DNA of 64,000 bases, taken from NCBI GenBank assembly GCA_021778515.1, contig JAJYCJ010000005.1, forward strand, positions 1,341 through 65,340, written 5' to 3'. The notes beneath the pieces were generated by a model. The model was not told the DNA's origin. It saw only the letters and a list, made by a program, of their open reading frames with translations, and made no database searches. Both the position numbers and the translations under genes were made by a program. The first letter of the stretch is position 1. Every line of letters begins with the position of its first letter. The DNA is from Acidobacteriota bacterium (GTDB taxonomy: Bacteria; Acidobacteriota; UBA4820; DSQY01). Shown one piece after another: positions 1,392 to 12,908 of the stretch.

Positions 1392-3520
1392 TGGTTGAAT
1401 CGCTCCTTCTCGTCCGCATCCCACGTGAAATCCTGGGCGGCCAGCCGGGCCGCCCAATTCCTGGCCTTCTGAAGCATATCAAAATCTTGCAGCGGATTGG
1501 CCAGCCGGAACCCCCCCCCTCCCCACTGCTGGGTACCCGCCGGCTCTCCGGCCCCGCGGAGCTGCAGGTCAGCCTCCGCGATGGCGAACCCGTCGCGGGT
1601 GCCCTCCAGGACTTTGAGGCGCTTCAGCGCATCCTCTCCGGCGTCCGGACCCTGCATCAGGATGCAGTACCCTTTGTGGCCGGCCCGGCCGACCCGGCCC
1701 CGGAACTGATGGAGCTGGGCCAGACCGAAGCGTTCGGCGTGTTCGACCATCATGACGGAGGCCTCGGGCAGGTCCACTCCCACCTCGACCACGGATGTGG
1801 CCACCAGGAGCCGGATCTCGCCGCTCCTCAATCGCTCCATCACGGCTTCCTTTTCCCGCGGCTTCATGCGGCCGTGGAGGAGGGCCGCCGGGTAGCCCCG
1901 GAACGGCCCCGCCGTCAGCCGCTGGAATCCCTGCGTGGCGGCCTGGAGGTCGGTGGCCGCCGACTCCTCCACCAGCGGGTAAATGACGAAGACCTGGCGC
2001 CCCGCGTCCATCTCGCGCCGCAGGAACTCCTCCACCCGGTGGCGCGCCGATGGGCCTCGGACCGCCGTCACCACCTCCCGGCGCCCGGGCGGCAGCTCAT
2101 CCAGGACGCTCAGATCCAGATCGCCGTAGAGGGTCAGGGCCAGGCTCCGCGGAATGGGCGTGGCCGACATGACGAGGACGTTGGGCTCCCTCCCCTTCGC
2201 CACCAGCCGCGAGCGCTGAACCACGCCGAAGCGGTGCTGCTCGTCGATGACGACCATGCCCAGAGAGGCGTAGTCCACTCCCTCCTGAAAGAGGCTGTGC
2301 GTACCGACGATCAGCCGCAATTCTCCGGAGGCGAGGTCGGCCAGGAGATCCCTGCGCGCCTTCCCCTTCACGGCGGCCGTCAGGAGCCCCACGGGCATCC
2401 CTGAGGGCCCGGCCATAGATTGCAGCTTCTTGAACTGCTGGCCGGCGAGCACCTCGGTGGGCGCCATGAAGGCCGCCTGGAAGCCCTGGTGCGCGGCCAT
2501 GATCATGGCCAGAAACGCCACCACCGTCTTCCCGCTTCCCACGTCCCCGTGCAGGAGCCGGTACATGGGCGCGGGCGACTCCAGGTCCGAGACGATCTCC
2601 TTGAGCACGCGGCGCTGGGCCCCCGTCAGGTGGAAGGGAAGGAGCCTGCGCAGGAGATCGCCGGTGGCGGGATCGGGGCGGATGACCACTCCGCTCAGGC
2701 TCTTCCTCTCCTGCCGCGCCGCCATGAGGGAGGATTGAAGCCCGAGCATCTCCTCGAAGGCCAGCTGCCTGAAGGCGGGCGTCTTGAGGGCCGCCAGATC
2801 CTTCAGTGACTCGCCGTCATCAGGGAAATGGGCCTTGAGAAATGCCTCTCCGCGGCCCGCCCAGCCCTCCTCCCGAAGCAGGGCCCTCGGGAGCACCTCC
2901 GGAATGGACCGGCCCGCTTCGAAAACCCTGAACATGAGCGTGCGGAAAGCCTTGCTGGGCAGGTTCCCCACCTTTCTATAGACGGGGACGATCCGATCCA
3001 AGTGGATGGCGGCCTCGCCCGGCGAGGGCACCTTCTCCACCTCCGGGCTCTCCATCTGGAGCCTCAGCCCACCTCGGACGGAAAAGAGTTCGACCCTCCC
3101 GAAGAGGAAAAGCTCCGTGCCTTGAGGGAGGGATTCCTTGAGCCAGGGCTGGTTGAACCAGACCACGTGGACGCTTCCCGTGGCGTCCGCCACCAGAGCC
3201 TCCGTGACGTGCACCCCCCTGCGCCTGGCGCTTCGCGAGGTGACGGCGAGGAGCTTGGCCCTCACGCAAACCGTCCCGCCTGGGCTGAGGGAGGCGATGG
3301 GGACGGGATGGCGGCGGTCTTCGAACCGGAGGGGAAGCCACCACAGCAGATCGTCGCGGGTGACGAGCCCCGCGGCCGCCAGGCTCCGCGCCGTGGCAGG
3401 GCCGACACCCGGCAGTCCTTGGAGGCCCTGGCCGGGCGGGGCCCGCCTGGAGGGCGTATCAGTCGCAGCGCTCTTCGTGGTTCCCGTTCGCCGCGTAGAG
3501 CTCTTCGATGAGATGGGCAT
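1340..3520 (-). CDS. recG: ATP-dependent DNA helicase RecG
   Basis: 726-aa ORF. N-terminus ..LPGVGPATARSLAAAGLVTRDDLLWWLPLRFEDR.. matches the RecG wedge region. Walker A GDVGSGKT, DEQHRFG box and helicase C motifs are present. The true start may be internal (GTG/TTG), since the ORF overlaps the acyl-CoA ligase 3' end by ~60 bp. Confidence 0.9.
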   Translation of the reverse strand: MPISSKSSTRRTGTTKSAATDTPSRRAPPGQGLQGLPGVGPATARSLAAAGLVTRDDLLWWLPLRFEDRRHPVPIASLSPGGTVCVRAKLLAVTSRSARRRGVHVTEALVADATGSVHVVWFNQPWLKESLPQGTELFLFGRVELFSVRGGLRLQMESPEVEKVPSPGEAAIHLDRIVPVYRKVGNLPSKAFRTLMFRVFEAGRSIPEVLPRALLREEGWAGRGEAFLKAHFPDDGESLKDLAALKTPAFRQLAFEEMLGLQSSLMAARQERKSLSGVVIRPDPATGDLLRRLLPFHLTGAQRRVLKEIVSDLESPAPMYRLLHGDVGSGKTVVAFLAMIMAAHQGFQAAFMAPTEVLAGQQFKKLQSMAGPSGMPVGLLTAAVKGKARRDLLADLASGELRLIVGTHSLFQEGVDYASLGMVVIDEQHRFGVVQRSRLVAKGREPNVLVMSATPIPRSLALTLYGDLDLSVLDELPPGRREVVTAVRGPSARHRVEEFLRREMDAGRQVFVIYPLVEESAATDLQAATQGFQRLTAGPFRGYPAALLHGRMKPREKEAVMERLRSGEIRLLVATSVVEVGVDLPEASVMMVEHAERFGLAQLHQFRGRVGRAGHKGYCILMQGPDAGEDALKRLKVLEGTRDGFAIAEADLQLRGAGEPAGTQQWGGGGFRLANPLQDFDMLQKARNWAARLAAQDFTWDADEKERFNQWIEEWQARWGSLGRIG

Positions 3521-5291
3521 ACCGTTCGTCGATCACCCGCCGCTTGACCTTCAGGGTGGGCGTCAGCTCCCCCTCCTCCTGGCTGAGCTCCCTGGGCAGC
3601 AGTTTGCAGCGCTTCACCTGCTCGTAGCGAGAAAGGTCGGCGTTGGCTCGTTCGATGACGTGGCCGAACAGGTGCTTTACCACCGGCTCCTCCACCAGGT
3701 CCCGCGGGTCGATCTTGTGCACGCCCTTGGAGCGGGCGTAGTCGATGACGTTGTCCCAGTTGGGAACGATCAGGGCGGTGATGTACGGGCGCCGATCGCC
3801 GATCAGGACGGCCTGCGAGACGTACTTGTTCATCTTGAGCAGGTTCTCGATGGGTTGCGGCGCCACGTTCTTGCCACCCGCCGTGACGATGAGCTCCTTC
3901 TTCCGGTCCGTGATGAATAGGTAGCCGTCCTCGTCGAGGCGGGCGATGTCGCCCGTGGCGAACCAGCCGTCCTCCGTGAGCACCTCGCGCGTTTCCGCCG
4001 GCATCTTGTAATAGCCGCTCATCACATTGGGGCCCCGCACCCAGAGCTCTCCGTCCTCGGCGATGCGGACCTCCACGTTGGTGAGGGCGCGCCCGGGCGA
4101 GCCGAAGCGGATCTGGTCGGTGCCGTCGGCATCCACCTCGTTCACGGTGACGACTGGCGTCGTCTCCGTCAGGCCGTAGCCCTCGGCGATGGGGAGGCCG
4201 CAGCCGTAAAAGAACACCGCGAGGTGCCGAGGGAGCGGGGCTCCGCCCGAGACGAAGAAGCGGATCCGCCCGCCGACCTTCTCCCGCAGCTTCTTCGCCA
4301 GGATCTTGTCGGCGATGGACCTTTTGAAGGCCAACCCGGCCGGGACCTTCCCGGCCTTCTTCGCTTCGGCCCACGCGCTCAGGGTGTCCATGCTCCAATG
4401 GATGAGGCCCTTCTTGATGCGGGAGGAGTGAGCGGCCTGCTCCATGAGGCGCGCGTAGACCTTCTCGTAGAGGCGAGGAACGGCCGCCATGACCGTGGGC
4501 TTCACCTCGGCCAGGTTCTCGGCGACCTTGTCGATGCTCTCCGCGTAGGCGATGCTCATTCCCTTCCAGAAGAAGCAGTAGTCGATCATGCGCTCGAAGG
4601 AGTGGCTGAGCGGAAGGAAGACGAGGGCCCGGTCGTTCTGGTCGATGGCCAGGTACTCCATCCCCGCGCGGCAGTTCTCCACGAAGCATTTGTGTTCGAG
4701 CAGGACGCCCTTCGGCACGCCCGTGGTTCCAGAGGTGTAGATGATCGTCGCCAGGTCTTCCGGCTTCACGGTCCCTGCCACCCTGCGGTGCGCCCCCGGG
4801 TTCTTGGCCGCGAAGTCCTGTCCCCACTGAAGGATGGTGTCCCAGGGGAGCAGCTCGCCCGGCCCCTTCGGAGGGGGATCCATGATCACGATGTTCCGAA
4901 GGCGCTTGAGCGAGTCTTTCTGGGAGAGGAGTTTGTTGGCCTGGTCCTCGCTGGAGACGATCGCCACCTCGGCGTCCGAGTTCGCCACGATGTAGGCGCT
5001 CTCGACCGCGTTCAGCGTGGCGTAGAGGGGCACGTTGACCGCCGCGGCGGTGAGGATGGCGTAGTCGGCCATGAGCCACTTGGGGCGGTCCTCCGAGATC
5101 AGGGCCACCTTGTCCCCCGGCTTCACCCCCAGGGCGATGAGGCCGCAGGAGAACCGCTCCACCGTCCGGGCCACCTCCTCGGAGGAAACCACCTCCCAAA
5201 GCCCCTTCTTCTTGCGCATCAGGAGGTCCGGCCTTTTCAGGTTGTCCACGGTGTTGAAATACAGGTCACACAGGGTCCGAATTTCCGCCAT
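3459..5291 (-). CDS. Long-chain fatty-acid--CoA ligase (AMP-dependent synthetase/ligase, FadD-like)
   Basis: AMP-binding motif IIYTSGTTGVPKGV, ..GYGLTETT.. and ..TGDIARLDEDGYLFITDRKKELI.. Start taken at MAEIRTL (ATG at complement 5289-5291). Confidence 0.85.
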   Translation of the reverse strand: MAEIRTLCDLYFNTVDNLKRPDLLMRKKKGLWEVVSSEEVARTVERFSCGLIALGVKPGDKVALISEDRPKWLMADYAILTAAAVNVPLYATLNAVESAYIVANSDAEVAIVSSEDQANKLLSQKDSLKRLRNIVIMDPPPKGPGELLPWDTILQWGQDFAAKNPGAHRRVAGTVKPEDLATIIYTSGTTGVPKGVLLEHKCFVENCRAGMEYLAIDQNDRALVFLPLSHSFERMIDYCFFWKGMSIAYAESIDKVAENLAEVKPTVMAAVPRLYEKVYARLMEQAAHSSRIKKGLIHWSMDTLSAWAEAKKAGKVPAGLAFKRSIADKILAKKLREKVGGRIRFFVSGGAPLPRHLAVFFYGCGLPIAEGYGLTETTPVVTVNEVDADGTDQIRFGSPGRALTNVEVRIAEDGELWVRGPNVMSGYYKMPAETREVLTEDGWFATGDIARLDEDGYLFITDRKKELIVTAGGKNVAPQPIENLLKMNKYVSQAVLIGDRRPYITALIVPNWDNVIDYARSKGVHKIDPRDLVEEPVVKHLFGHVIERANADLSRYEQVKRCKLLPRELSQEEGELTPTLKVKRRVIDERYAHLIEELYAANGNHEERCD

Positions 5292-5335
5292 CACCCCCTC
5301 CTCCGTTGAATGACAGTCTAACACGGCGCCCGGGC

Positions 5336-5944
5336 TCAGCGGCCCAGGCCTCCGGCGGGAACGTTGATTCCCAGGACCCCGTCCACCCAGTGGTCCCCCT
5401 CCCTGATGAAAGGCACCGCCACGTAGGCCAGGCCGGTGGGTTCGAAGAAGCCCTCCACTCCCGTGACGTCGCCGGCCCTGTCCAGATAGGCCAGCCAGGT
5501 CAGGCGGGCCATTTCGGGGAGGTCCGCCGGATCCAGCACTCCCTCCTGAACGGGGGCCTCCCCCGGCGCCAGGATGATGTTCGCCGGAGCCAGGGCGTAC
5601 CGGAGCGTCAGGTTATCGTAGAGCGCCGCCCGCGGGCTCCAGAAGGCCGGGAAGAACAGGGGCCCCAGAGGGGTCAGGCGATCGTAGGCCCTCCCGCGCT
5701 CCTCGTCCGGCGCGCGCCAGCTCGCCTTGCCCTCCAGCCGCCAGAAGGGGACGTAGATCGGCTCTCCCGAACCTATGCCCGCCGAGGGTTTGGCGTACAG
5801 GAGGGGGAAGGGTCTCGGAGATCGGTGCATGGAAACCGCCAGGCGGCATGGGTGGCAGAGAAAGACGAGGGCCCGGCCGCCGCCCGCCAGCTCGCCCCCG
5901 CACCGAGGACAGGCCAGGGGAACCAGCAGGGCCTCGCCGGTCAT
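5336..5944 (-). CDS. Zn-ribbon protein, paralog 3 of a triplet (function unknown)
   Basis: Real start at MTGEALLVPLACPRCGGEL..FLCHPCRL (C-x2-C-x14-C-x2-C) inside a longer Arg/Pro-rich frame-shadow ORF. Shares the ..YVPFWRLEGK.. motif with the two upstream genes. ATGA start/stop overlap with the upstream gene at 5941-5944. Confidence 0.5.
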   Translation of the reverse strand: MTGEALLVPLACPRCGGELAGGGRALVFLCHPCRLAVSMHRSPRPFPLLYAKPSAGIGSGEPIYVPFWRLEGKASWRAPDEERGRAYDRLTPLGPLFFPAFWSPRAALYDNLTLRYALAPANIILAPGEAPVQEGVLDPADLPEMARLTWLAYLDRAGDVTGVEGFFEPTGLAYVAVPFIREGDHWVDGVLGINVPAGGLGR

Positions 5945-7110
5945 AGGCCCCACCGTTCCAGCCCCTTGGCGGCTCCGCCCAGGATGGCCCCCAAGAAGAA
6001 TCGCAACAGCGCATTGACGGGAGCCATGGGGCTCCTGGGCACGGGCCCCGCGGCATCCACCTTCATGCCGCCGCCTCCCAGCCGGACCTCGAGCGGGGCC
6101 CGGATCATCAGCCAGGCCGCGTTGAGTCCCAGCGCGATGAGGAAGAAGAGGAGCACGCCCACTACCGCCAGGACGCGCACCACGACCCAGCGTCCCTGGC
6201 CCTGCGCGAGCTCCTGGCCGGCGCTGACGGCGCCGGCGATGACCGAGAGGAACTGGCCGACAAAAAAGCCCAGGCCCGCGGTCATGACGAGGCCGGCCAG
6301 GACCGCGTAGTCCCTGCGGAAGGGGAGGTGGCCCGACACCCATCGCCCTCCCACCTCTTCGATAGTCACGGTGTAGAACTGGCCGCCGTAACGGAAGGTC
6401 AGGGTCTGAACCGGAATGTAGAGAAGGGTCGTCTGGAGCTGCATGACCTTGAGCTCGCCCGCCGCCGATTGGACGGCCTTCACGCCGATATCGAGGATCC
6501 TCTCGATAGGAATGTCCACGTCCACCACCTCGCCCTGGCCCGCCAGCTCCTCGATATCGGCCGGGACCGCACGGTCCAGGCTCTCCTTCACAGCGTCCCG
6601 GAGGTCCACGTCCAAGAGGTCCCAGTTGGAGAGGGCTGCCGCGGGGTACAGGTAACGGAAGTCGCCCAGGATCACGCGGCTGTCCTCCTCCACGCGGACC
6701 TCGGTCTTCTGTCGTTGGAAGGTGCGCTGATACGGCCCGCGGAGGGCGGCCGCGTCCAGTCTGGGAAGGCCGGCCCCGGGCTCTTGCACAATCCTCTCCC
6801 TGCCGGTGGCCAGCACGCCGCCCCTCTTGCCGGTGAGGAGATAGAAGGGGAGATAGCTCCTCTGCCGCCTCACGAGGAGAGCCCTGCGGCTGAGGTCCGA
6901 GGGGAGCCAGCGGCCGCGCAGCAGATCCCGCGCCGCGGCCTGCAGGTCCTGCTCGCTCATGGAAGGCGGGAGCAGGTATCGCGGGAGAAAGCCCGGTTCA
7001 CGGTAGAAGAGCGGCTTGCCGCAGAATTCGCAGATGGTCTTTCGGGCGGCCAGCGGCGGGCCGACCGTTCCCCCGCACGCGGGGCAGCTCAGCGCCCTTG
7101 GTCCGCTCAT
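5941..7110 (-). CDS. Zn-ribbon membrane protein, paralog 2 (function unknown)
   Basis: Start MSGPRALSCPACGG..ICEFCGK (C-x2-C-x15-C-x2-C) at complement 7108-7110. ..SYLPFYLLTGKRGG.. motif. Two to three C-terminal TM helices. ATGA overlaps on both sides. Confidence 0.55.
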   Translation of the reverse strand: MSGPRALSCPACGGTVGPPLAARKTICEFCGKPLFYREPGFLPRYLLPPSMSEQDLQAAARDLLRGRWLPSDLSRRALLVRRQRSYLPFYLLTGKRGGVLATGRERIVQEPGAGLPRLDAAALRGPYQRTFQRQKTEVRVEEDSRVILGDFRYLYPAAALSNWDLLDVDLRDAVKESLDRAVPADIEELAGQGEVVDVDIPIERILDIGVKAVQSAAGELKVMQLQTTLLYIPVQTLTFRYGGQFYTVTIEEVGGRWVSGHLPFRRDYAVLAGLVMTAGLGFFVGQFLSVIAGAVSAGQELAQGQGRWVVVRVLAVVGVLLFFLIALGLNAAWLMIRAPLEVRLGGGGMKVDAAGPVPRSPMAPVNALLRFFLGAILGGAAKGLERWGL

Positions 7111-7823
7111 GGCCCGCCCTCCTGGAAGAATCGTCGCGCGGCGGGATAGGCTGCCGCCGCGCTCCCCGCCACCAGAGCGAGGCTCCAGATGCCCTGCAGG
7201 AAGAAGGCCTCGGCGGTGAAGACCAGGAACAGAAGAGTCAGCATCGTCCAGAAGCGCCTGGAAATCTGCTTGGTCTGCGGGGGCGGGCCCTCCCCCAGAT
7301 GGACCTTGCCCGTGACTCCGTCGATCCACGCCGCGTAGGTCTTGTCCGCACCGTAGGTCACCCGGTAAAAGGGCACCATGACCAGGCTGAACCGGCCCGA
7401 TGCCTCGCGCCCGTGCCACTGGGCCGAGGCGCTCTCGGCGCACGGCAGCACCGCGAAGCCGCTGGCGGCCTCGTCGGAGAAGTAGACGGCGCCGGCCGAA
7501 GGCAGGCTGAAACCGTGCAGGGCGGGAGGCTGGGGGCTGAAGGCGGCGACGGTCCTCCGTCCGCCCTCCCCCTGAACGCTCCAAAACGGAAGGAACTCTG
7601 GATTCACGGACTGGACGGGAAGGGAGGGCATCTCCGCCTCGGCCAGCGCCTCCCGCAGGAGGAGATCCACCCTGGCCCGGGGCACGGCGGGCGGAATCAG
7701 GAACCGCTGGAAGGTCTGGGCCCGATCCAGGTAGAGCGTGGAACCGCAGAAGGGGCAGCGAAGGAAGGGCTCGTCCCGTTCAAGCGCGATCTTCCCGGCG
7801 CAGTTCGCGCACTGGACCTCCAT
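7107..7823 (-). CDS. Zn-ribbon membrane protein, paralog 1 (function unknown)
   Basis: MEVQCANCAGK..LRCPFCGSTLYLD (C-x2-C-x15-C-x2-C), ..EFLPFWSVQGEGG.. and a C-terminal hydrophobic helix (FWTMLTLLFLVFTAEAFFLQGIWSLALVAG). Confidence 0.55.
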   Translation of the reverse strand: MEVQCANCAGKIALERDEPFLRCPFCGSTLYLDRAQTFQRFLIPPAVPRARVDLLLREALAEAEMPSLPVQSVNPEFLPFWSVQGEGGRRTVAAFSPQPPALHGFSLPSAGAVYFSDEAASGFAVLPCAESASAQWHGREASGRFSLVMVPFYRVTYGADKTYAAWIDGVTGKVHLGEGPPPQTKQISRRFWTMLTLLFLVFTAEAFFLQGIWSLALVAGSAAAAYPAARRFFQEGGP

Positions 7824-7902
7824 CGTCCCTCTCCACGGCCCTGGAAACCTAGACCGCTCTCCCGATCATGGCGGGAAGCTCAAATCGGCCTCGAACGCCA
7901 TC

Positions 7903-9309
7903 TTACCGCCCCTTCCGTCTTCCTTCCAGCACCCCGGCCAGCCTCCGCGGCAGGTCGTAGAAACTCCCGCTGGAAAAGAAGGCCACGAGATCCCCGCCCC
8001 TCAGCCGGCCGGCGAACCACTCCAGGTACTCCTCCGGCGAGGCCATGACCTCGGCCTCCTTTCCCGCCGACCTCAGCGCGGAGGCCACGAGGACGAGGTC
8101 GAGCCGCTCCTCCGCGGGGATCTTCCCCGGGCCCGGCATGGGACCGAGAAGGACGGCCTGGGCCAGCGGAAAGGCCATGGGCAGGGAATCCTGATGCTGC
8201 CGGGTCTGGCACGTGAAGGAGCGGGGTTCGAAACAGGCCACGATGCGGCGGCCCGGGTAACGCTGGGCCAGTGCGGCGAGCGTCTCGCGGATGGCCGTCG
8301 GGTGATGCGCGAAGTCATCCACGATGGTGATTCCGCCGCCGTCGAACACCACCTCCTGCCGACGGCGGACCCCCGGGAAACCGGCTAGCGCCTCGCGCAA
8401 TGCCTCCAGTGGGGCGCCGGCCTCCAGGCAGGCCGCGAGCGCGGCGATGGAGTTCCTGAGGTTGTGGGCGCCGCTCAGGGGGCTGGCGAATGGGCCCAGC
8501 CGCACTCCCGCTCGGACCAGGACGAATCGCGCGCCCGCCGGAGTGAAGGCCACCTCGTCCGCGGTCCACTCCTCCCTTCCGGAGAGGCCGAAGCTCTGTG
8601 CCCGCCGCCCCGCCAGGGGCGCGAGCTTCCTCACCGAGGGGCTCTCCACGCCGAGGAGGACCAGTCCCTCCGGGCGCACCGCGCCGAAGAGGCGCACGAA
8701 GGCCGTTTCGAGCTCGCCCAGGGTCTTGAAATTGTCCAGGTGGTCCATCTCGATGTTATTCACGATCAGGAGGCTGGGAGCGTAATGCAGAAACTTGGGT
8801 CCCTTGTCGAAGTAGGCCGTCTCGTACTCGTCGCCCTCGAGGACGGTCCACTCTCCTCCGCCCCAGAGGAAGGAACTCTCCAGGCCCTTCACGACGCCGC
8901 CCACGATGAGGTTGGGCGCGAGTCCGGCCCTCTCCAGAAGGTAGCCGCAGAGGGCCGTGGTGGTCGTCTTGCCGTGGGTGCCCGCCACCACGAGGCTCCT
9001 GCGCCCCTGCACCGCGAAGCGCCCGATCGCCTCGGCCATGGAGAGATAGTCGATGCCCTCATCCACCGCGGCCCGCGCTTCAGAGTTGTCCGAGTGAATC
9101 GCGTTGCCGATGATCACGAGATCCGGCCTCGGATTCAGGTGTGCCGGATCAAACCCCAGGGCCACGGGGATGCCGTAGCGCGCCACCATCTCGCTCATGG
9201 GCGGGTAGAGGGCCGTGTCGCAACCCGTCACCTCGTGTCCCTGCGCCTTCAGGAGGCCCGCGAGAGCCCCCATCCCCGTGCCGCCCACGGCCATCATGTG
9301 AATCCTCAT
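7903..9309 (-). CDS. mpl: UDP-N-acetylmuramate:L-alanyl-gamma-D-glutamyl-meso-diaminopimelate ligase (Mpl) / MurC family
   Basis: Starts MRIHMMAVGGTGMGALAGLL. Mur ligase motifs GTHGKTTTT and ..IVNNIEMDHLD.. are present. ATG at complement 9307-9309. Confidence 0.8.
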   Translation of the reverse strand: MRIHMMAVGGTGMGALAGLLKAQGHEVTGCDTALYPPMSEMVARYGIPVALGFDPAHLNPRPDLVIIGNAIHSDNSEARAAVDEGIDYLSMAEAIGRFAVQGRRSLVVAGTHGKTTTTALCGYLLERAGLAPNLIVGGVVKGLESSFLWGGGEWTVLEGDEYETAYFDKGPKFLHYAPSLLIVNNIEMDHLDNFKTLGELETAFVRLFGAVRPEGLVLLGVESPSVRKLAPLAGRRAQSFGLSGREEWTADEVAFTPAGARFVLVRAGVRLGPFASPLSGAHNLRNSIAALAACLEAGAPLEALREALAGFPGVRRRQEVVFDGGGITIVDDFAHHPTAIRETLAALAQRYPGRRIVACFEPRSFTCQTRQHQDSLPMAFPLAQAVLLGPMPGPGKIPAEERLDLVLVASALRSAGKEAEVMASPEEYLEWFAGRLRGGDLVAFFSSGSFYDLPRRLAGVLEGRRKGR

Positions 9310-9491
9310 CGCCCCTCCCTCCCAGCAGGTCCGAGCCGGCGTCCCGCTCCTCGCTCGCAGAATGAGCATGATAATCCAGGGACCGCCAAAATGCAGTGCA
9401 GCCGCCGTCATGAACGGAGGCCTCCCGCGCGAGGGCCGACCGGGGCCGACGTGCGCAACCCGCTGCGGACGCGAGTTCGGGCGTGTCTTCC

Positions 9492-9520
9492 TTGAAATCG
9501 GCTGGGCTTCTTGCTACCTT
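9492..9520 (+). promoter_or_regulatory. Putative sigma70-type promoter for the pduS-like gene (TTGAAA-N17-TACCTT)
   Basis: TTGAAA at 9492-9497 and TACCTT at 9515-9520 with 17-bp spacing. GGAGG RBS 5 nt before the ATG at 9538. By-eye match only. Confidence 0.25.
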
Positions 9521-9537
9521 GGCGCAGCGGAGGCCCC

Positions 9538-10836
9538 ATGCGGGAAGCGGCTAGGATTGCTTTTGAAAATGGTGTGGTGGGCGCCGGAGGGGCCGGCTTT
9601 CCTACCCACGCCAAACTCTCGGCCTCCGCGGACACCTTCGCTGTCAACGCCGCCGAGTGCGAGCCCCTCCTCTACAAGGACCAGCAGATCCTCGAGCACT
9701 TCCTTCCGGAGTTCGCACAGGGGCTTCTCCTTTGCGGCGAGGCCGTGGGCGCGGGGCGTCTGATCGTGGGGATCAAGGACAAGCACCACGAACTCATCGA
9801 ACGGCTCCGCGACGAGCTTCCCCGCCAGGTGGAGGTGTGTCCCCTGCCCGACACCTACCCCTCCGGCGACGAGCACCTGCTGGTCTTCGACGCCACGGGC
9901 CGCGCCATTCCGAAGGGCGGAATTCCCCTGGACGTGGGCGTCGTCGTCAACAACGTCGAGACGGTCTTGAACGTGGGCCTGCAAAGACCGGTTACGCATA
10001 AATTCCTCACCGTTTCGGGGGAGGTGCCCGAGGCTCTCACCTTTCGGGTGCCCATCGGGGTGAGCCTCCGAGAGGTGCTGCACGCCGCCGGCGCCCCCAC
10101 GGGAGGGATGGGCTTCATCGTCAACGGCCCCATGATGGGAACGGTCACGGACGACCTCGAACAGCCGGTCACCAAGACCACCTCGGGAGTGCTGGTTCTT
10201 CCTTCGGACCACTCGCTCATCCTCCGGAAGGGCCGCAGGACACGGGATGTCCACAAGATCGCCTACACCTGCGACCAGTGCATGCGGTGCTCCGACCTGT
10301 GCCCGAGGGACCTCCTGGGCCACTTCGTCAAACCCCACAAGGCCATGATCTCCATCGGCTTCGCGGCGGAAGAAAAGATGGCCTGGCAGCAGACGGCCCT
10401 CTACTGCTGCGAATGCGCCCTCTGCACCCTCTACGCCTGCCCCGAGGACCTGGACCCCTTCCGCATGATGGTGGAGAGCAAGCGCGCCCTCATGGCCCAG
10501 GGGATCCGCCCTCTGAAGCAGGCGGTGGAACCCAGCCCCCTGTACGACTTCCGCCGCACGCCGACGAGCCTGCTCATCCGCCGGCTGGAGCTGGCGCCCT
10601 ATCAGCATCCCCAGAAGTATGTGGAGATGGACCTGCATCCGCGCCGCCTCGAACTGCCTCTCAAACAACACACCGGAGCCCCCTCCACTCCGTCGGTCGG
10701 GAAGGGACGATCGCTGCGCGGCGGGGACCTGGTGGCGGACGTCCCCGAGGGGAGCCTGGGCGCCAAGATCTTCTCTCCCCTCGCGGGCCGCGTGGGCGAG
10801 GTTTCAACGGACCGCATCGTCGTGGAGGTCGCATGA
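9538..10836 (+). CDS. pduS: PduS-like cobalamin reductase / RnfC-family Fe-S flavoprotein
   Basis: N-terminal ..ENGVVGAGGAGFPTHAKL.. motif. Two 4Fe-4S ferredoxin motifs (CDQCMRCSDLCP and CCECALCTLYACP). Immediately followed by, and overlapping ATGA with, a PduT-like BMC-T gene, which is the canonical pduS-pduT order. Confidence 0.7.
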   Translation: MREAARIAFENGVVGAGGAGFPTHAKLSASADTFAVNAAECEPLLYKDQQILEHFLPEFAQGLLLCGEAVGAGRLIVGIKDKHHELIERLRDELPRQVEVCPLPDTYPSGDEHLLVFDATGRAIPKGGIPLDVGVVVNNVETVLNVGLQRPVTHKFLTVSGEVPEALTFRVPIGVSLREVLHAAGAPTGGMGFIVNGPMMGTVTDDLEQPVTKTTSGVLVLPSDHSLILRKGRRTRDVHKIAYTCDQCMRCSDLCPRDLLGHFVKPHKAMISIGFAAEEKMAWQQTALYCCECALCTLYACPEDLDPFRMMVESKRALMAQGIRPLKQAVEPSPLYDFRRTPTSLLIRRLELAPYQHPQKYVEMDLHPRRLELPLKQHTGAPSTPSVGKGRSLRGGDLVADVPEGSLGAKIFSPLAGRVGEVSTDRIVVEVA

Positions 10837-11528
10837 GCCCCAAAATCCACCAAATCCGCGGGGCGGATCGTGGGCGCGGCCCCGCGCCGAAGAAGCCCAA
10901 GACGGACGCCGCTCCGATCCAGCCGCCGAAGGACAGCTACGGCGGCCAGAGGCGCGGGCCCGCCGTCAAAGACGCCATCGGCCTTCTGGAGCTGACTTCC
11001 ATCGCCAAGGGAATCGAGGCCACGGACCTGATGCTCAAGGCCTCCGACGTGGAACTCCTGGCCAGCCGGTCCATCTGCTCGGGCAAGTACATGGTTCTGG
11101 TGCGAGGCGACGTGGCCGCCTGCACCTCCTCCGTGGCCGCGGGCGAAGAGGTGGCTCGGGAGACCCTGGCCGACTCCGTCGTGATCCCGCACCTCCATCC
11201 CGAGATCTTTCCGGCCATCGCGCAGGCCTCGCTGGTGGAGGAGGTGGGGGCGCTGGGCATCCTCGAGTCCTTCAACGTGGCCAGCCTGATCGAGGGCGCC
11301 GACACCGCCGTGAAGTCCTCCGAGGTTCACCTCCTCGAGATCCGCCTCGCCATGGCCCTGGGGGGCAAGGCCTTCTGCGTGCTCACGGGACAGGTGGCCG
11401 CGGTGCGCTCGGCCGTGGAGGCCGGCAAGTCCGTGATCGGAGCCAAGGGCGCATTGACCAACTGGTCGGTCATCCCCTCCCCCGATCGCGCGCTCGTCAA
11501 GGAAATTCTGGGTGGCCGCCTGATCTAG
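10833..11528 (+). CDS. pduT: Bacterial microcompartment shell protein, tandem-BMC-domain (BMC-T), PduT-like
   Basis: Two PF00936-like domains (AIGLLELTSIAKGIEATDLMLKASDVELLASRSICSGKYMVLVRGDVAA.. and ..ALGILESFNVASLIEGADTAVKSSEVHLLEIR..GGKAFCVLTGQVAAVRSAVEAG) closely matching the PduT pattern. A ~45-aa basic low-complexity N-terminal extension is present. ATG at 10833 overlaps the pduS stop. Confidence 0.75.
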   Translation: MSPKIHQIRGADRGRGPAPKKPKTDAAPIQPPKDSYGGQRRGPAVKDAIGLLELTSIAKGIEATDLMLKASDVELLASRSICSGKYMVLVRGDVAACTSSVAAGEEVARETLADSVVIPHLHPEIFPAIAQASLVEEVGALGILESFNVASLIEGADTAVKSSEVHLLEIRLAMALGGKAFCVLTGQVAAVRSAVEAGKSVIGAKGALTNWSVIPSPDRALVKEILGGRLI

Positions 11529-11555: not shown

Positions 11556-12908
11556 ATGAGATCGAGCACCGTCCCGAACGGACCAACGGCCGGGGAAGGC
11601 CGGGCCTTTCCCCTCCTCCTCGTAGCTCTGGCTCTTTTCTCGACCTGCACCGCCGTTGCGGCCCAGACCCCTCCGCCCGCTCCTCCCGAGAAGCAGATCA
11701 CGGGGGTCATCACATCGAGCGGCTTCACCCAGCTCTCCATCGCGATTCCGCCGAGCAAGACGGAGGCCACCACGGCCGTCCAGGCCCAGGAGATCCTCTC
11801 CACGGTGACGGGCGATCTGGAGTTCTCGGGCTACTTCCAGCTCGTGGACCCATCCCTTTTCGCCGGGATGAATCCGAACGACACCAAGGTCGACTACGAT
11901 GCATGGACGGGGATGAAGGCGGACTATCTCCTCCTCACCAACGTCTATGCCTCCGGGAACCAGCTCACCCTCGAAGGCCGGCTCTATGACATCAAGCGCA
12001 AGGAGATGGTGACGGGCAAGCGCATCAAGGGCCCCGCCCAGGACGTGCGGGTCCTGGCCCACAACCTCTCTTCCGTGATCCTCGACTACCTCTTCGGCGC
12101 GGGGAGCTTCCCCACCAGCCAGATCCTCTTCACCTCGCACCTGGCCACCACGGAGGACATCTTTCTCTGCGATTACGACGGGAAGAACATCCTCCGCCTC
12201 ACGGCCATGGGCCAGCTCAACGTGACCCCCGACGTGAACCCCCAGGGCAACCTCATCGTCTTCACCTCCATCCTGAAAGACAGGCAGGAGATCTTCCTGC
12301 TGGATCGCCAGGGGCGGCGGAGGAAACTCTACGGGGACGGCGAGGGACTCAACTCCAACCCGCGATTCTCCCACGACGGCAAGACCGTGGCCTTCTGCTC
12401 CTCCCGGTCCGGGAACCCCGACATCTGGACCATCGGCGTGGATGGCAAGAACCTGACGCGGCTCACCTTCTCCTACGCCATCGACACCGCGCCCTGCTGG
12501 TCGCCCAACGACCAGCAGATAGCCTTCACCTCCGACCGCTCGGGCTCTCCCCAGATCTACATCATGGACAGGGACGGCGCCAACGTGAGGCGGTTGAGCC
12601 CACTGGACAGCGGGCGCTGCGATCAGCCCATCTGGTCCCCCCGCGGCGACAAAATTGCTTACAGCTCCTACAAGGACGGCCACTTCAACATCGCCGTGGC
12701 GGACCTGACCACCGGCGAGGTCACCTTTCTGACCCACGGGGAGGGAGACAACGAGGCGCCCTCCTGGTCGCCCGACGGGCGGTACCTGGCCTTCGCCAGC
12801 AACCGCTCCGGGAGCTATCAGATCTACATCATGCGTTGGGATGGGTCGGGAGTGACCCGGATCACGAACCAGCCGGACTGCTATTCGCCCTGCTGGTTCA
12901 AGGGCTGA
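11556..12908 (+). CDS. tolB: TolB-like periplasmic beta-propeller protein
   Basis: Signal peptide. Repeated ..SP.WSPDG..IAF.S.RSG...I... beta-propeller blades (..NPRFSHDGKTVAFCSSRSGNPDIWT.., ..APSWSPDGRYLAFASNRSGSYQIYIM..). No tolQRA or pal genes nearby. Confidence 0.75.
   Translation: MRSSTVPNGPTAGEGRAFPLLLVALALFSTCTAVAAQTPPPAPPEKQITGVITSSGFTQLSIAIPPSKTEATTAVQAQEILSTVTGDLEFSGYFQLVDPSLFAGMNPNDTKVDYDAWTGMKADYLLLTNVYASGNQLTLEGRLYDIKRKEMVTGKRIKGPAQDVRVLAHNLSSVILDYLFGAGSFPTSQILFTSHLATTEDIFLCDYDGKNILRLTAMGQLNVTPDVNPQGNLIVFTSILKDRQEIFLLDRQGRRRKLYGDGEGLNSNPRFSHDGKTVAFCSSRSGNPDIWTIGVDGKNLTRLTFSYAIDTAPCWSPNDQQIAFTSDRSGSPQIYIMDRDGANVRRLSPLDSGRCDQPIWSPRGDKIAYSSYKDGHFNIAVADLTTGEVTFLTHGEGDNEAPSWSPDGRYLAFASNRSGSYQIYIMRWDGSGVTRITNQPDCYSPCWFKG

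What the first reader, a model, noticed from the sequence alone, without database searches (positions are those of the whole stretch)
5336..7823. Three translationally coupled paralogous Zn-ribbon genes of unknown function (two membrane-anchored)
Three consecutive minus-strand genes (238, 389 and 202 aa) each open with a C-x2-C-x14/15-C-x2-C zinc ribbon and share a downstream (Y/F)(L/V)PF(W/Y)..G(E/K) motif. They are joined by ATGA start/stop overlaps at 7107-7110 and 5941-5944. Paralogs 1 and 2 end in TM helices; paralog 3 is soluble. They lie between mpl and an acyl-CoA ligase in a long co-directional run (mpl>P1>P2>P3>acyl-CoA ligase>recG>lnt). I cannot assign them to a named family; the fold-plus-motif combination suggests an uncharacterised membrane-associated module.
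Basis: seen in the sequence. Interest (0 to 1): 0.7.

Follow-up and report, generated by a model that had tools for sequence, protein, structure and literature searches.

The report
Conserved YdjG-like zinc-ribbon gene trio
Three overlapping genes encode related zinc-ribbon proteins (two membrane-anchored, one soluble) that are distant relatives of Bacillus YdjG/SamG, a membrane anchor of the PspA/flotillin-like stress system; I found the same ordered trio in at least four bacterial phyla and no description of it in the papers I searched.

Summary
There are three minus-strand genes: P1 at 7107-7823, P2 at 5941-7110 and P3 at 5336-5944. Each opens with CxxC-x14-CxxC, and they are joined by two ATGA overlaps. 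P1 and P2 carry C-terminal transmembrane hairpins; P3 has none. All three are under purifying selection (dN/dS 0.15-0.31).

Pfam, NCBIfam, PADLOC, PHROGs and PDB sequence and fold searches give nothing beyond generic zinc-ribbon noise. Profile comparisons show the three are paralogs.

The ordered triad P1-P2-P3, nearly always with 4-nt overlaps, recurs in every non-Firmicute context I read. These contexts span Acidobacteriota, a Myxococcales MAG, Ca. Lernaellota, CSSED10-310 and unnamed metagenome lineages, and the flanking genes are unrelated. In two related CSSED10-310-type loci the triad directly follows a YdjI-like SPFH gene.

Best reading: a hetero-oligomeric scaffold on the cytoplasmic face of the inner membrane that docks or regulates membrane-maintenance proteins. 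This is a new variant of a barely characterised kind. Function is inferred, not shown.

The parts
7107..7823 (-). P1: 238-aa YdjG-like protein, made of an N-terminal C4 zinc ribbon, an alpha/beta domain and a C-terminal 2-TM hairpin
   Evidence: ORF and translation. Family alignment A1. hhalign to the YdjG family 97.5%, E 8e-12, over 204 columns. dN/dS about 0.2.
7746..7811 (-). P1 zinc ribbon, C5-x2-C8-x14-C23-x2-C26
   Evidence: All four Cys are invariant in A1. Positions.
7581..7595 (-). P1 'FLPFW' strand motif (aa 77-81)
   Evidence: W81 is invariant. It aligns with P2 YLPFY and P3 YVPFW.
7137..7256 (-). P1 transmembrane hairpin (about aa 190-229), with invariant E205-A206
   Evidence: Hydropathy. 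Invariant columns. Flanking Arg/Lys suggest N-in/C-in topology (sequence, inference).
7107..7110 (-). ATGA overlap: P2 start codon and P1 stop codon
   Evidence: Sequence. The -4 junction is conserved in most loci.
5941..7110 (-). P2: 389-aa YdjG-like protein, made of a zinc ribbon, a larger alpha/beta cytoplasmic domain, a 2-TM helical hairpin, a juxtamembrane W-x3-R motif, a beta-hairpin and a C-terminal amphipathic helix
   Evidence: Alignments A2 and A6. AF2 model with pLDDT 76.5. hhalign of A6 against the YdjG family 99.7%, E 2.5e-25.
7021..7086 (-). P2 zinc ribbon, C9-x2-C12-x14-C27-x2-C30
   Evidence: Cys are invariant across 54 diverse P2-type sequences.
6841..6855 (-). P2 'YLPFY' strand motif (aa 86-90)
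   Evidence: P88 is invariant in A2, A4 and A6.
6100..6315 (-). P2 transmembrane helical hairpin (aa 266-337)
   Evidence: AF2 helices 266-301 and 306-337. Hydropathy.
5941..5944 (-). ATGA overlap: P3 start codon and P2 stop codon
   Evidence: Sequence. Conserved junction.
5336..5944 (-). P3: 202-aa soluble divergent paralog, made of a zinc ribbon and an alpha+beta domain with no PDB match
5846..5911 (-). P3 zinc ribbon, C12-x2-C15-x14-C30-x2-C33
   Evidence: Invariant Cys in A3.
5741..5755 (-). P3 'YVPFW' strand motif (aa 64-68)
   Evidence: P66, F67 and W68 are invariant.

Best explanation
P1, P2 and P3 are three ancient paralogs of the YdjG/SamG type. Each has a cytoplasmic C4 zinc ribbon followed by an alpha/beta domain framed by two conserved strands ('PFW' and 'P(V/F)(W/Y)...(D/N)G.xG').

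The genes overlap by 4 nt, so the proteins are probably made together by coupled translation. I propose that they assemble through their homologous N-terminal modules into a hetero-oligomer on the cytoplasmic face of the inner membrane. The N-in/C-in helical hairpins of P1 and P2 would hold it there, and P3 would be the soluble third subunit.

By analogy with B. subtilis YdjG(SamG)-YdjH, the complex would act as a non-enzymatic docking and regulatory platform. YdjG-YdjH anchor the SPFH protein YdjI(SamI), and through it PspA. The triad would similarly recruit or restrain soluble membrane-maintenance proteins of the SPFH/Band-7 or PspA-ESCRT-III type.

What is shown: the gene anatomy, the paralogy, the homology of P1 and P2 to YdjG, triad conservation across phyla, purifying selection, and the lack of conserved catalytic-type residues across the wide P2 family.

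What is inferred: the topology, hetero-oligomer formation, the identity of the client, and the stress-response role.
For: Homology to YdjG. A HMMER profile of the P2 family retrieves YdjG-type proteins from 1.84 billion representatives (P0161, E 2.2e-12). P0161 is 31% identical to B. subtilis YdjG over its full length (E 3e-65). YdjG itself was recovered through a published primer. Non-circular hhalign results: P2 type against YdjG type 99.7%, E 2.5e-25, 247 columns; P1 against YdjG type 97.5%, E 8e-12, 204 columns; the acidobacterial P2 profile alone against YdjG 89%.

Complex formation. The order P1-P2-P3 is kept, with each gene best matching its own profile, in all non-Firmicute contexts read. 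Stop/start overlaps are nearly universal.

Scaffold rather than enzyme. Across 54 diverse P2-type sequences only the four Cys, three Pro, and near-invariant Ala, Gly and Arg survive.

SPFH link. In L026 and L027 a Band_7_1 plus zinc-ribbon gene (YdjI-like, E 1.8e-64) sits 5-14 nt upstream on the same strand. In the P0099 locus three Band_7 genes and NfeD abut the triad.

Literature. YdjG and YdjH are required for membrane foci of YdjI and PspA (PMC8581546). SamG-SamH recruit SamI (bioRxiv 10.64898/2026.02.06.704340). YdjG is described as two zinc ribbons, a YpeB-related NTF2-like domain and a TM segment (PMC11237479).
Against: The 64-kb window holds no SPFH, PspA or TPM/YdjH homolog.

Most triad contexts show only unrelated housekeeping neighbours. 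The SPFH link therefore rests on two or three loci plus Firmicutes.

The YdjH partner that carries most of the B. subtilis phenotype is absent from every triad locus.

P3 matches YdjG only in the ribbon (79%).

The triad proteins have one ribbon, not two, and a 2-TM hairpin, not one TM.

No structural match supports the NTF2/PepSY assignment. The PepSY hits are weak, 2 of 60 members.

Hetero-oligomerisation was not modelled.
Confidence: 0.45

Rival explanations
1. The triad is a self-contained sub-membrane complex whose job is unrelated to SPFH or PspA. It could be, for example, a biogenesis, quality-control or localisation factor for some other inner-membrane or cytoplasmic client. The homology to YdjG would then reflect only a shared anchoring fold.
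For: Most contexts have no SPFH or PspA neighbour. The triad lacks YdjH (all loci). P3 has a confident model with no known fold match. The triad sits among core housekeeping genes and is vertically inherited.
Against: The only recurrent functional neighbour class seen is SPFH, and the only characterised homolog works with SPFH and PspA (PMC8581546).
Confidence: 0.25
2. The triad coordinates peptidoglycan synthesis or recycling, or cell shape, with membrane state, and works with the neighbouring Mpl ligase and Lnt.
For: The triad lies directly downstream of mpl in 17 acidobacterial loci. Envelope genes (lnt, tolB) are nearby. B. subtilis ydjG and ydjH deletions mislocalise peptidoglycan synthesis under alkaline shock (PMC8581546).
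Against: The mpl linkage disappears in L019-L021 and in all other phyla, while the triad stays intact. P1 and P2 expose almost nothing to the periplasm (sequence).
Confidence: 0.15
3. They are membrane-tethered regulators, either anti-sigma-like or zinc-ribbon DNA/RNA-binding proteins, that transduce a signal to transcription.
For: Zinc ribbon plus TM is a common regulator layout. Some distant members pass as TFIIB-type ribbons (8 of 60). SamGH is proposed to signal (bioRxiv 10.64898/2026.02.06.704340).
Against: None of the contexts read has a conserved sigma factor, two-component or HTH partner. The sigma-54 activator in L020 and L021 is three genes away and lineage-specific. The ribbon is C4, not the HxxxCxxC of ZAS anti-sigmas. 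The window proteins score below all ribbon-family cut-offs.
Confidence: 0.1
4. They form a mobile defence or toxin-type cassette.
For: Three small coupled genes of unknown function superficially resemble defence islands.
Against: There are no PADLOC hits and only a ribbon-level PHROG hit. tblastn finds no match in 72,556 plasmids or 50,697 phages. Base composition matches the surroundings. Synteny is stable and vertical, and selection is purifying.
Confidence: 0.02

Closest known systems
Bacillus subtilis YdjG (SamG) of the pspA-ydjGHI (pspA-samGHI) operon
   Same: Both have an N-terminal cytoplasmic C4 zinc ribbon with the same CxxC-x14-CxxC layout, then a helix, a 'PFW' strand, a central 'P(F)D...L' segment, a 'PVW...NGQTGK'-type strand and a C-terminal membrane anchor. 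Homology runs full-length for P1 and P2. In two related CSSED10-310-type loci the triad sits next to a YdjI-like Band_7_1 plus zinc-ribbon gene.
   Different: YdjG is a single gene with two ribbons and one TM, and it is paired with the TPM-domain protein YdjH and with PspA. Here there are three diverged paralogs with one ribbon each. Two carry 2-TM hairpins and one is soluble. No YdjH, TPM or PspA gene is seen in any triad locus. The carriers are Gram-negative or uncultured phyla.
PepSY/YpeB-type (NTF2-like) domains
   Same: Ravi et al. (PMC11237479) call the YdjG core 'related to YpeB, NTF2-like fold'. The helix-then-beta-sheet order and the terminal '...(D/N)G.TG.h' strand resemble PepSY. 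Two of 60 distant members give weak PepSY hits.
   Different: The window proteins do not reach any PepSY score. No structural hit to PepSY or NTF2 folds was obtained. PepSY domains are usually extracytoplasmic, whereas these are predicted to be cytoplasmic.
E. coli PspB/PspC membrane module of the Psp response
   Same: There is a functional analogy only: small inner-membrane proteins that tether or regulate a soluble membrane-protective protein.
   Different: There is no sequence or architectural similarity. No PspA or PspF was seen here.

Membership tests
YdjG/SamG family (no Pfam or NCBIfam model; defined here by B. subtilis YdjG and alignment A5) | N-terminal C4 zinc ribbon(s) | tested here: met
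   All three proteins carry CxxC-x14-CxxC, aligned to the second ribbon of YdjG. They have one ribbon rather than two.
YdjG/SamG family | Homologous core domain between ribbon and membrane anchor (PFW strand ... PVW...G.TG strand) | tested here: met
   P2 type 99.7%, E 2.5e-25, 247 columns. P1 97.5%, E 8e-12, 204 columns. HMMER E 2.2e-12 to the YdjG homolog P0161. For P3 only the ribbon aligns to YdjG (79%). P3's link runs through P1 and P2, so P3 alone is inconclusive.
YdjG/SamG family | Single C-terminal TM anchor | tested here: not met
   P1 and P2 have two-helix hairpins, and P3 has no TM. YdjG-type sequences have one TM. This is a variant architecture.
YdjG/SamG family | Operon partnership with TPM-domain YdjH, SPFH YdjI and PspA | tested here: not met
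   The window has none. No TPM or PspA gene lies in any triad locus. A YdjI-like Band_7_1 gene is adjacent only in L026 and L027. Band_7 and NfeD genes are adjacent in the P0099 locus.
YdjG/SamG family | Recruits SPFH/PspA proteins to the membrane | not testable with these tools
   This needs localisation or interaction experiments (PMC8581546 for B. subtilis).
PepSY (PF03413) | Score above the Pfam gathering threshold | tested here: not met
   There is no PepSY hit for P1, P2 or P3 at E<=1. Only 2 of 60 distant members hit, best E 0.0013.
TFIIB-type zinc ribbon (PF08271) | Score above the gathering threshold (29 bits) | tested here: not met
   P1 scores 10.9 bits. YdjG itself passes at 41 bits.
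ZAS anti-sigma factors | HxxxCxxC zinc motif and an adjacent ECF sigma gene | tested here: not met
   The ribbon is C4 only. No sigma-70/ECF gene neighbours the triad in the contexts read.
Known anti-phage defence systems (PADLOC-DB) | Match to any defence protein model | tested here: not met
   There are no hits at E<=1.

The most novel reading that the evidence does not exclude
The P1-P2-P3 triad is a previously unrecognised, self-contained heterotrimeric machine on the cytoplasmic face of the inner membrane. It arose by ancient triplication of a YdjG-like ancestor and is kept as a core housekeeping module in several mostly uncultured phyla. Its soluble subunit P3 has a fold with no solved relative. 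The machine performs a membrane-homeostasis function that does not depend on PspA or YdjH, and may act as the membrane receptor for SPFH cages in these lineages.
Probability: 0.3. Interest if true: 0.7.

Novelty: new variant of a known kind. Interest (0 to 1): 0.55.

Why it matters
YdjG/SamG is the least understood component of the Bacillus PspA-SPFH membrane-stress module. It has no family model in Pfam or NCBIfam.

This finding shows that its fold is far more widespread than Firmicutes. The P2 profile gives 1010 hits at E<=1e-3 among 50%-identity representatives.

Outside Firmicutes the fold exists as a strictly ordered, translationally coupled three-paralog cassette. This gives a concrete handle on how SPFH and ESCRT-III-type membrane-repair proteins might be tethered in Gram-negative and uncultured lineages.

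It also supplies three new protein families for annotation, and a confident structural model (P3) without a solved relative.

Tried and rejected
Pfam, NCBIfam, PADLOC and PHROGs scans of the three proteins gave only sub-threshold zinc-ribbon noise.

PDB sequence-profile searches with A2, A3 and A6 returned only small ribbon proteins, E >= 0.003.

The AFDB library was unavailable. A comparison with predicted structures could therefore not be done.

The promoter and terminator scan of 5000-9600 was at chance level.

tblastn of YdjH, YdjI, PspA and the L026 neighbours against the window found nothing relevant.

Plasmid and phage collections gave no match.

The LIMLP_15305 lead for the 175-aa neighbour in L026 led only to an sRNA table in a Leptospira paper.

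The 5-kb insertion in L019 holds S1, HIT and Kup genes and is uninformative.

I rejected the A4 versus YdjG result (99.5%) as evidence, because A4 contains YdjG-type sequences. I replaced it with the non-circular A6 versus A5 test.
Full report
**1. The observation**

The region 5336-7823 holds three consecutive minus-strand ORFs.
- P1 is 7107-7823, 238 aa.
- P2 is 5941-7110, 389 aa.
- P3 is 5336-5944, 202 aa.

The junctions read ...GGGCCATGAGCGG... and ...GGCCTATGACCGG.... Each downstream ATG therefore overlaps the upstream TGA by 4 nt, at 7107-7110 and 5941-5944, and purine-rich Shine-Dalgarno-like stretches lie just upstream.

The cysteines are P1 C5/C8/C23/C26, P2 C9/C12/C27/C30 and P3 C12/C15/C30/C33. 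This is CxxC-x14-CxxC in all three.

The PFW-type motif lies at P1 77-81, P2 86-90 and P3 64-68. Kyte-Doolittle windows give P1 one long hydrophobic stretch (about 191-229) and P2 two (about 267-300 and 304-340). P3 has none.

The flanks are as stated:
- a Mur-ligase (Mpl-type) gene upstream;
- an AMP-binding acyl-CoA ligase, recG and a truncated lnt downstream.

GC content is flat at about 0.68-0.70 across the region.

**2. They are real genes**

Each protein has orthologs in public data: six for P1, 42 for P2 and 35 for P3. All are unnamed or 'hypothetical', and the named ones come from Acidobacteriota MAGs.

Against three close relatives (L004-L006, 88-96% amino-acid identity), dN/dS is 0.15-0.31 for every gene.

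**3. No curated family**

Pfam, NCBIfam, PADLOC and PHROGs give only sub-threshold generic zinc-ribbon hits.

PDB sequence-profile searches find only ribbon proteins such as RpoP.

**4. Paralogy**

BLASTP is weak: P1-P2 E 3e-5, P1-P3 0.002, P2-P3 0.036.

Family profiles are clearer over the ribbon / helix / PFW-strand module:

| Pair | hhalign probability | E-value |
|---|---|---|
| P1-P2 | 96.7% | 4.6e-10 |
| P1-P3 | 85% | 6e-6 |
| P2-P3 | 89% | 2e-6 |

A second shared element is a C-terminal strand, 'h-h-P-(V/F)-(W/Y)...(D/N/E)-G-x-x-G'. On sliced alignments it also matches: P1 against broad P2 96.8%, and P1 against P3 82%.

The three are therefore diverged paralogs, and P3 is the most derived.

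**5. The triad is a conserved cassette**

In 19 genome loci from Acidobacteriota (labels include Thermoanaerobaculia and Aminicenantes), P1, P2 and P3 occur in that order wherever the contig allows.

Most of these share the mpl...acyl-CoA ligase-recG flanks. Three do not:
- L020 and L021 have RlmH-DksA-TPR upstream and an EpmA-like gene downstream.
- L019 has a 5-kb S1/HIT/Kup insertion.

The triad is intact in all of them.

A full HMMER scan of 1.84 billion representatives with the P2 profile gave 1010 hits at E <= 1e-3 and 111 at E <= 1e-10. I read the gene neighbourhoods of eight distant P2-type hits:

| Hit | Lineage |
|---|---|
| P0114 | Myxococcales MAG |
| P0102 | Ca. Alcyoniella australis, phylum Ca. 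Lernaellota |
| P0107 | candidate division CSSED10-310 |
| P0128 | 2.97-Mb ENA contig |
| P0099, P0138, P0105, P0112, P0124 | unnamed |

Every one sits between a gene of about 230-285 aa and a gene of about 205-220 aa. For the loci whose DNA was held, gene 1 scores best on the P1 profile, gene 2 on P2 and gene 3 on P3. For the P0099 locus no DNA was available, so only gene lengths and the 4-nt P2-P3 overlap could be read. The triplication therefore predates the split of these phyla.

Junctions are -4 nt in the great majority. The others range from -1 to -17 nt, or are gaps of 2-7 nt.

The ribbon spacing is identical everywhere. Two apparent ribbon losses were gene-calling truncations.

Flanking genes differ completely between lineages.

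**6. Link to a known protein**

Among the weaker hits of the P2 profile is a distinct class of about 25 of the top 150. These have two ribbons and one TM.

One of them, P0161 (E 2.2e-12), is followed by a TPM-domain gene. That is the layout of B. subtilis ydjG-ydjH.

I recovered the B. subtilis-type locus from a metagenome, using the ydjG primer printed in PMC8581546. It carries YdjG (341 aa), YdjH (TPM) and YdjI (Band_7_1 plus ribbon), confirmed by Pfam.

P0161 is 31% identical to YdjG over its full length (E 3e-65).

Non-circular profile-profile tests then gave the following.
- 54 P2-type sequences against 21 YdjG-type sequences: 99.7%, E 2.5e-25, 247 columns, running from the second YdjG ribbon to the TM.
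- P1 family against YdjG type: 97.5%, E 8e-12, 204 columns.
- The acidobacterial P2 profile alone against YdjG: 89%.
- P3 aligns to YdjG only in the ribbon: 79%.

YdjG itself carries nothing in Pfam beyond the TFIIB-type ribbon. Ravi et al. describe it as two ribbons plus an uncharacterised YpeB-related NTF2-like domain plus a TM segment (PMC11237479). This is consistent with the two weak PepSY hits among distant members.

**7. Structure**

The P2 model (pLDDT 76.5) shows the following elements:
- the ribbon;
- a helix;
- very long beta-hairpins;
- a disordered loop at 111-132;
- a helical insert;
- a final beta-meander;
- a 35+32-residue helical hairpin;
- a short beta-hairpin;
- a terminal helix.

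Arg/Lys clusters lie before TM1 and after TM2 of both P1 and P2, and the inter-helix loops are very short. By the positive-inside rule this suggests an N-in/C-in hairpin, with essentially no periplasmic exposure. This is inference from sequence.

**8. Function**

Across diverse P2-type proteins only the Cys ligands, three Pro and a few Gly/Ala/Arg residues are conserved. This argues for a scaffold rather than an enzyme.

In B. subtilis, YdjG and YdjH are both required for membrane foci of the soluble SPFH protein YdjI and of PspA. They interact with each other, and their loss causes shape and peptidoglycan-synthesis defects under alkaline shock (PMC8581546). A 2026 preprint renames them SamG and SamH and proposes a stress-sensor complex restrained by SamI (10.64898/2026.02.06.704340).

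Two related triad loci (L026, L027) place a YdjI-like Band_7_1 plus double-ribbon gene 5-14 nt upstream of P1, within a conserved seven-gene run. Another locus abuts three Band_7 genes and NfeD.

I therefore favour a hetero-oligomeric sub-membrane platform that docks or regulates SPFH/PspA-type membrane-maintenance proteins.

The weaknesses are as follows.
- No such partner lies in this window or in most contexts.
- YdjH is absent from all triad loci.
- No complex modelling was possible.

**9. Rivals**

- A peptidoglycan-linked role is suggested by mpl adjacency, but that linkage is confined to one clade.
- A regulator role lacks any conserved regulatory neighbour.
- A defence or mobile role is contradicted by PADLOC, the plasmid and phage searches, base composition and vertical synteny.
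- A function unrelated to SPFH cannot be excluded.

**10. Novelty**

The YdjG/SamG type is known but barely characterised and not modelled in the family libraries. I found no description of the three-paralog cassette in the papers searched. Nor did I find any description of its spread across Acidobacteriota, Myxococcota-labelled MAGs, Ca. Lernaellota and CSSED10-310.

I rate it a new variant of a known kind, of moderate interest.

Noticed in passing
window 9511-11528 (+), next to TolB-like gene 11556-12908: A PduS/RnfC-like flavo-iron-sulfur protein (Complex1_51K, Fer4_17, RnfC_N) is followed by a tandem BMC-domain shell protein. No other microcompartment genes are evident nearby. The same pair precedes tolB in L001.
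   Followed up: partly
L026 3385-10460 and L027 2711-9758: There is a conserved seven-gene run: a 712-714-aa multi-TM protein; a 175-aa helical protein weakly matching NCBIfam LIMLP_15305 (E 4e-13, below cut-off); a Band_7_1 plus double zinc ribbon gene; P1; P2; P3; and a zinc-ribbon plus FHA protein. It may be an extended version of the system.
   Followed up: partly
L021 5069-10712 (also L020): In Aminicenantes-like genomes the triad is translationally coupled by 4-8 nt overlaps to an upstream 456-aa TPR protein and a downstream EpmA/PoxA-like class II tRNA-synthetase paralog, after RlmH and DksA.
   Followed up: partly
window about 7206-7211 (P1 residues E205-A206): An invariant Glu-Ala pair lies inside the first transmembrane helix of P1, across orthologs down to 41% identity. 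A buried acidic residue is unusual for a pure anchor.
   Followed up: no
window about 6100-6112 (P2 W333...R337-x-P339): A juxtamembrane W-x3-R motif at the cytoplasmic end of TM2 is nearly invariant across 54 diverse P2-type proteins (R337 in at least 90%). It is followed by a short beta-hairpin.
   Followed up: no
L031 5892-7004; L033 about 2050-2718: Public gene calls truncate the N-terminal zinc ribbon of P1 (L031) and P3 (L033). The ribbon is present in frame upstream. Automated annotation probably under-reports these ribbons.
   Followed up: yes
window 3459-3520: The acyl-CoA ligase ORF overlaps the annotated recG start by about 60 nt. The same overlap appears in L001.
   Followed up: no
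P0099 locus (JGI 3300075153; no DNA held): The triad is convergent with a block of three Band_7 genes plus an NfeD gene. This is a second, independent SPFH neighbourhood.
   Followed up: no
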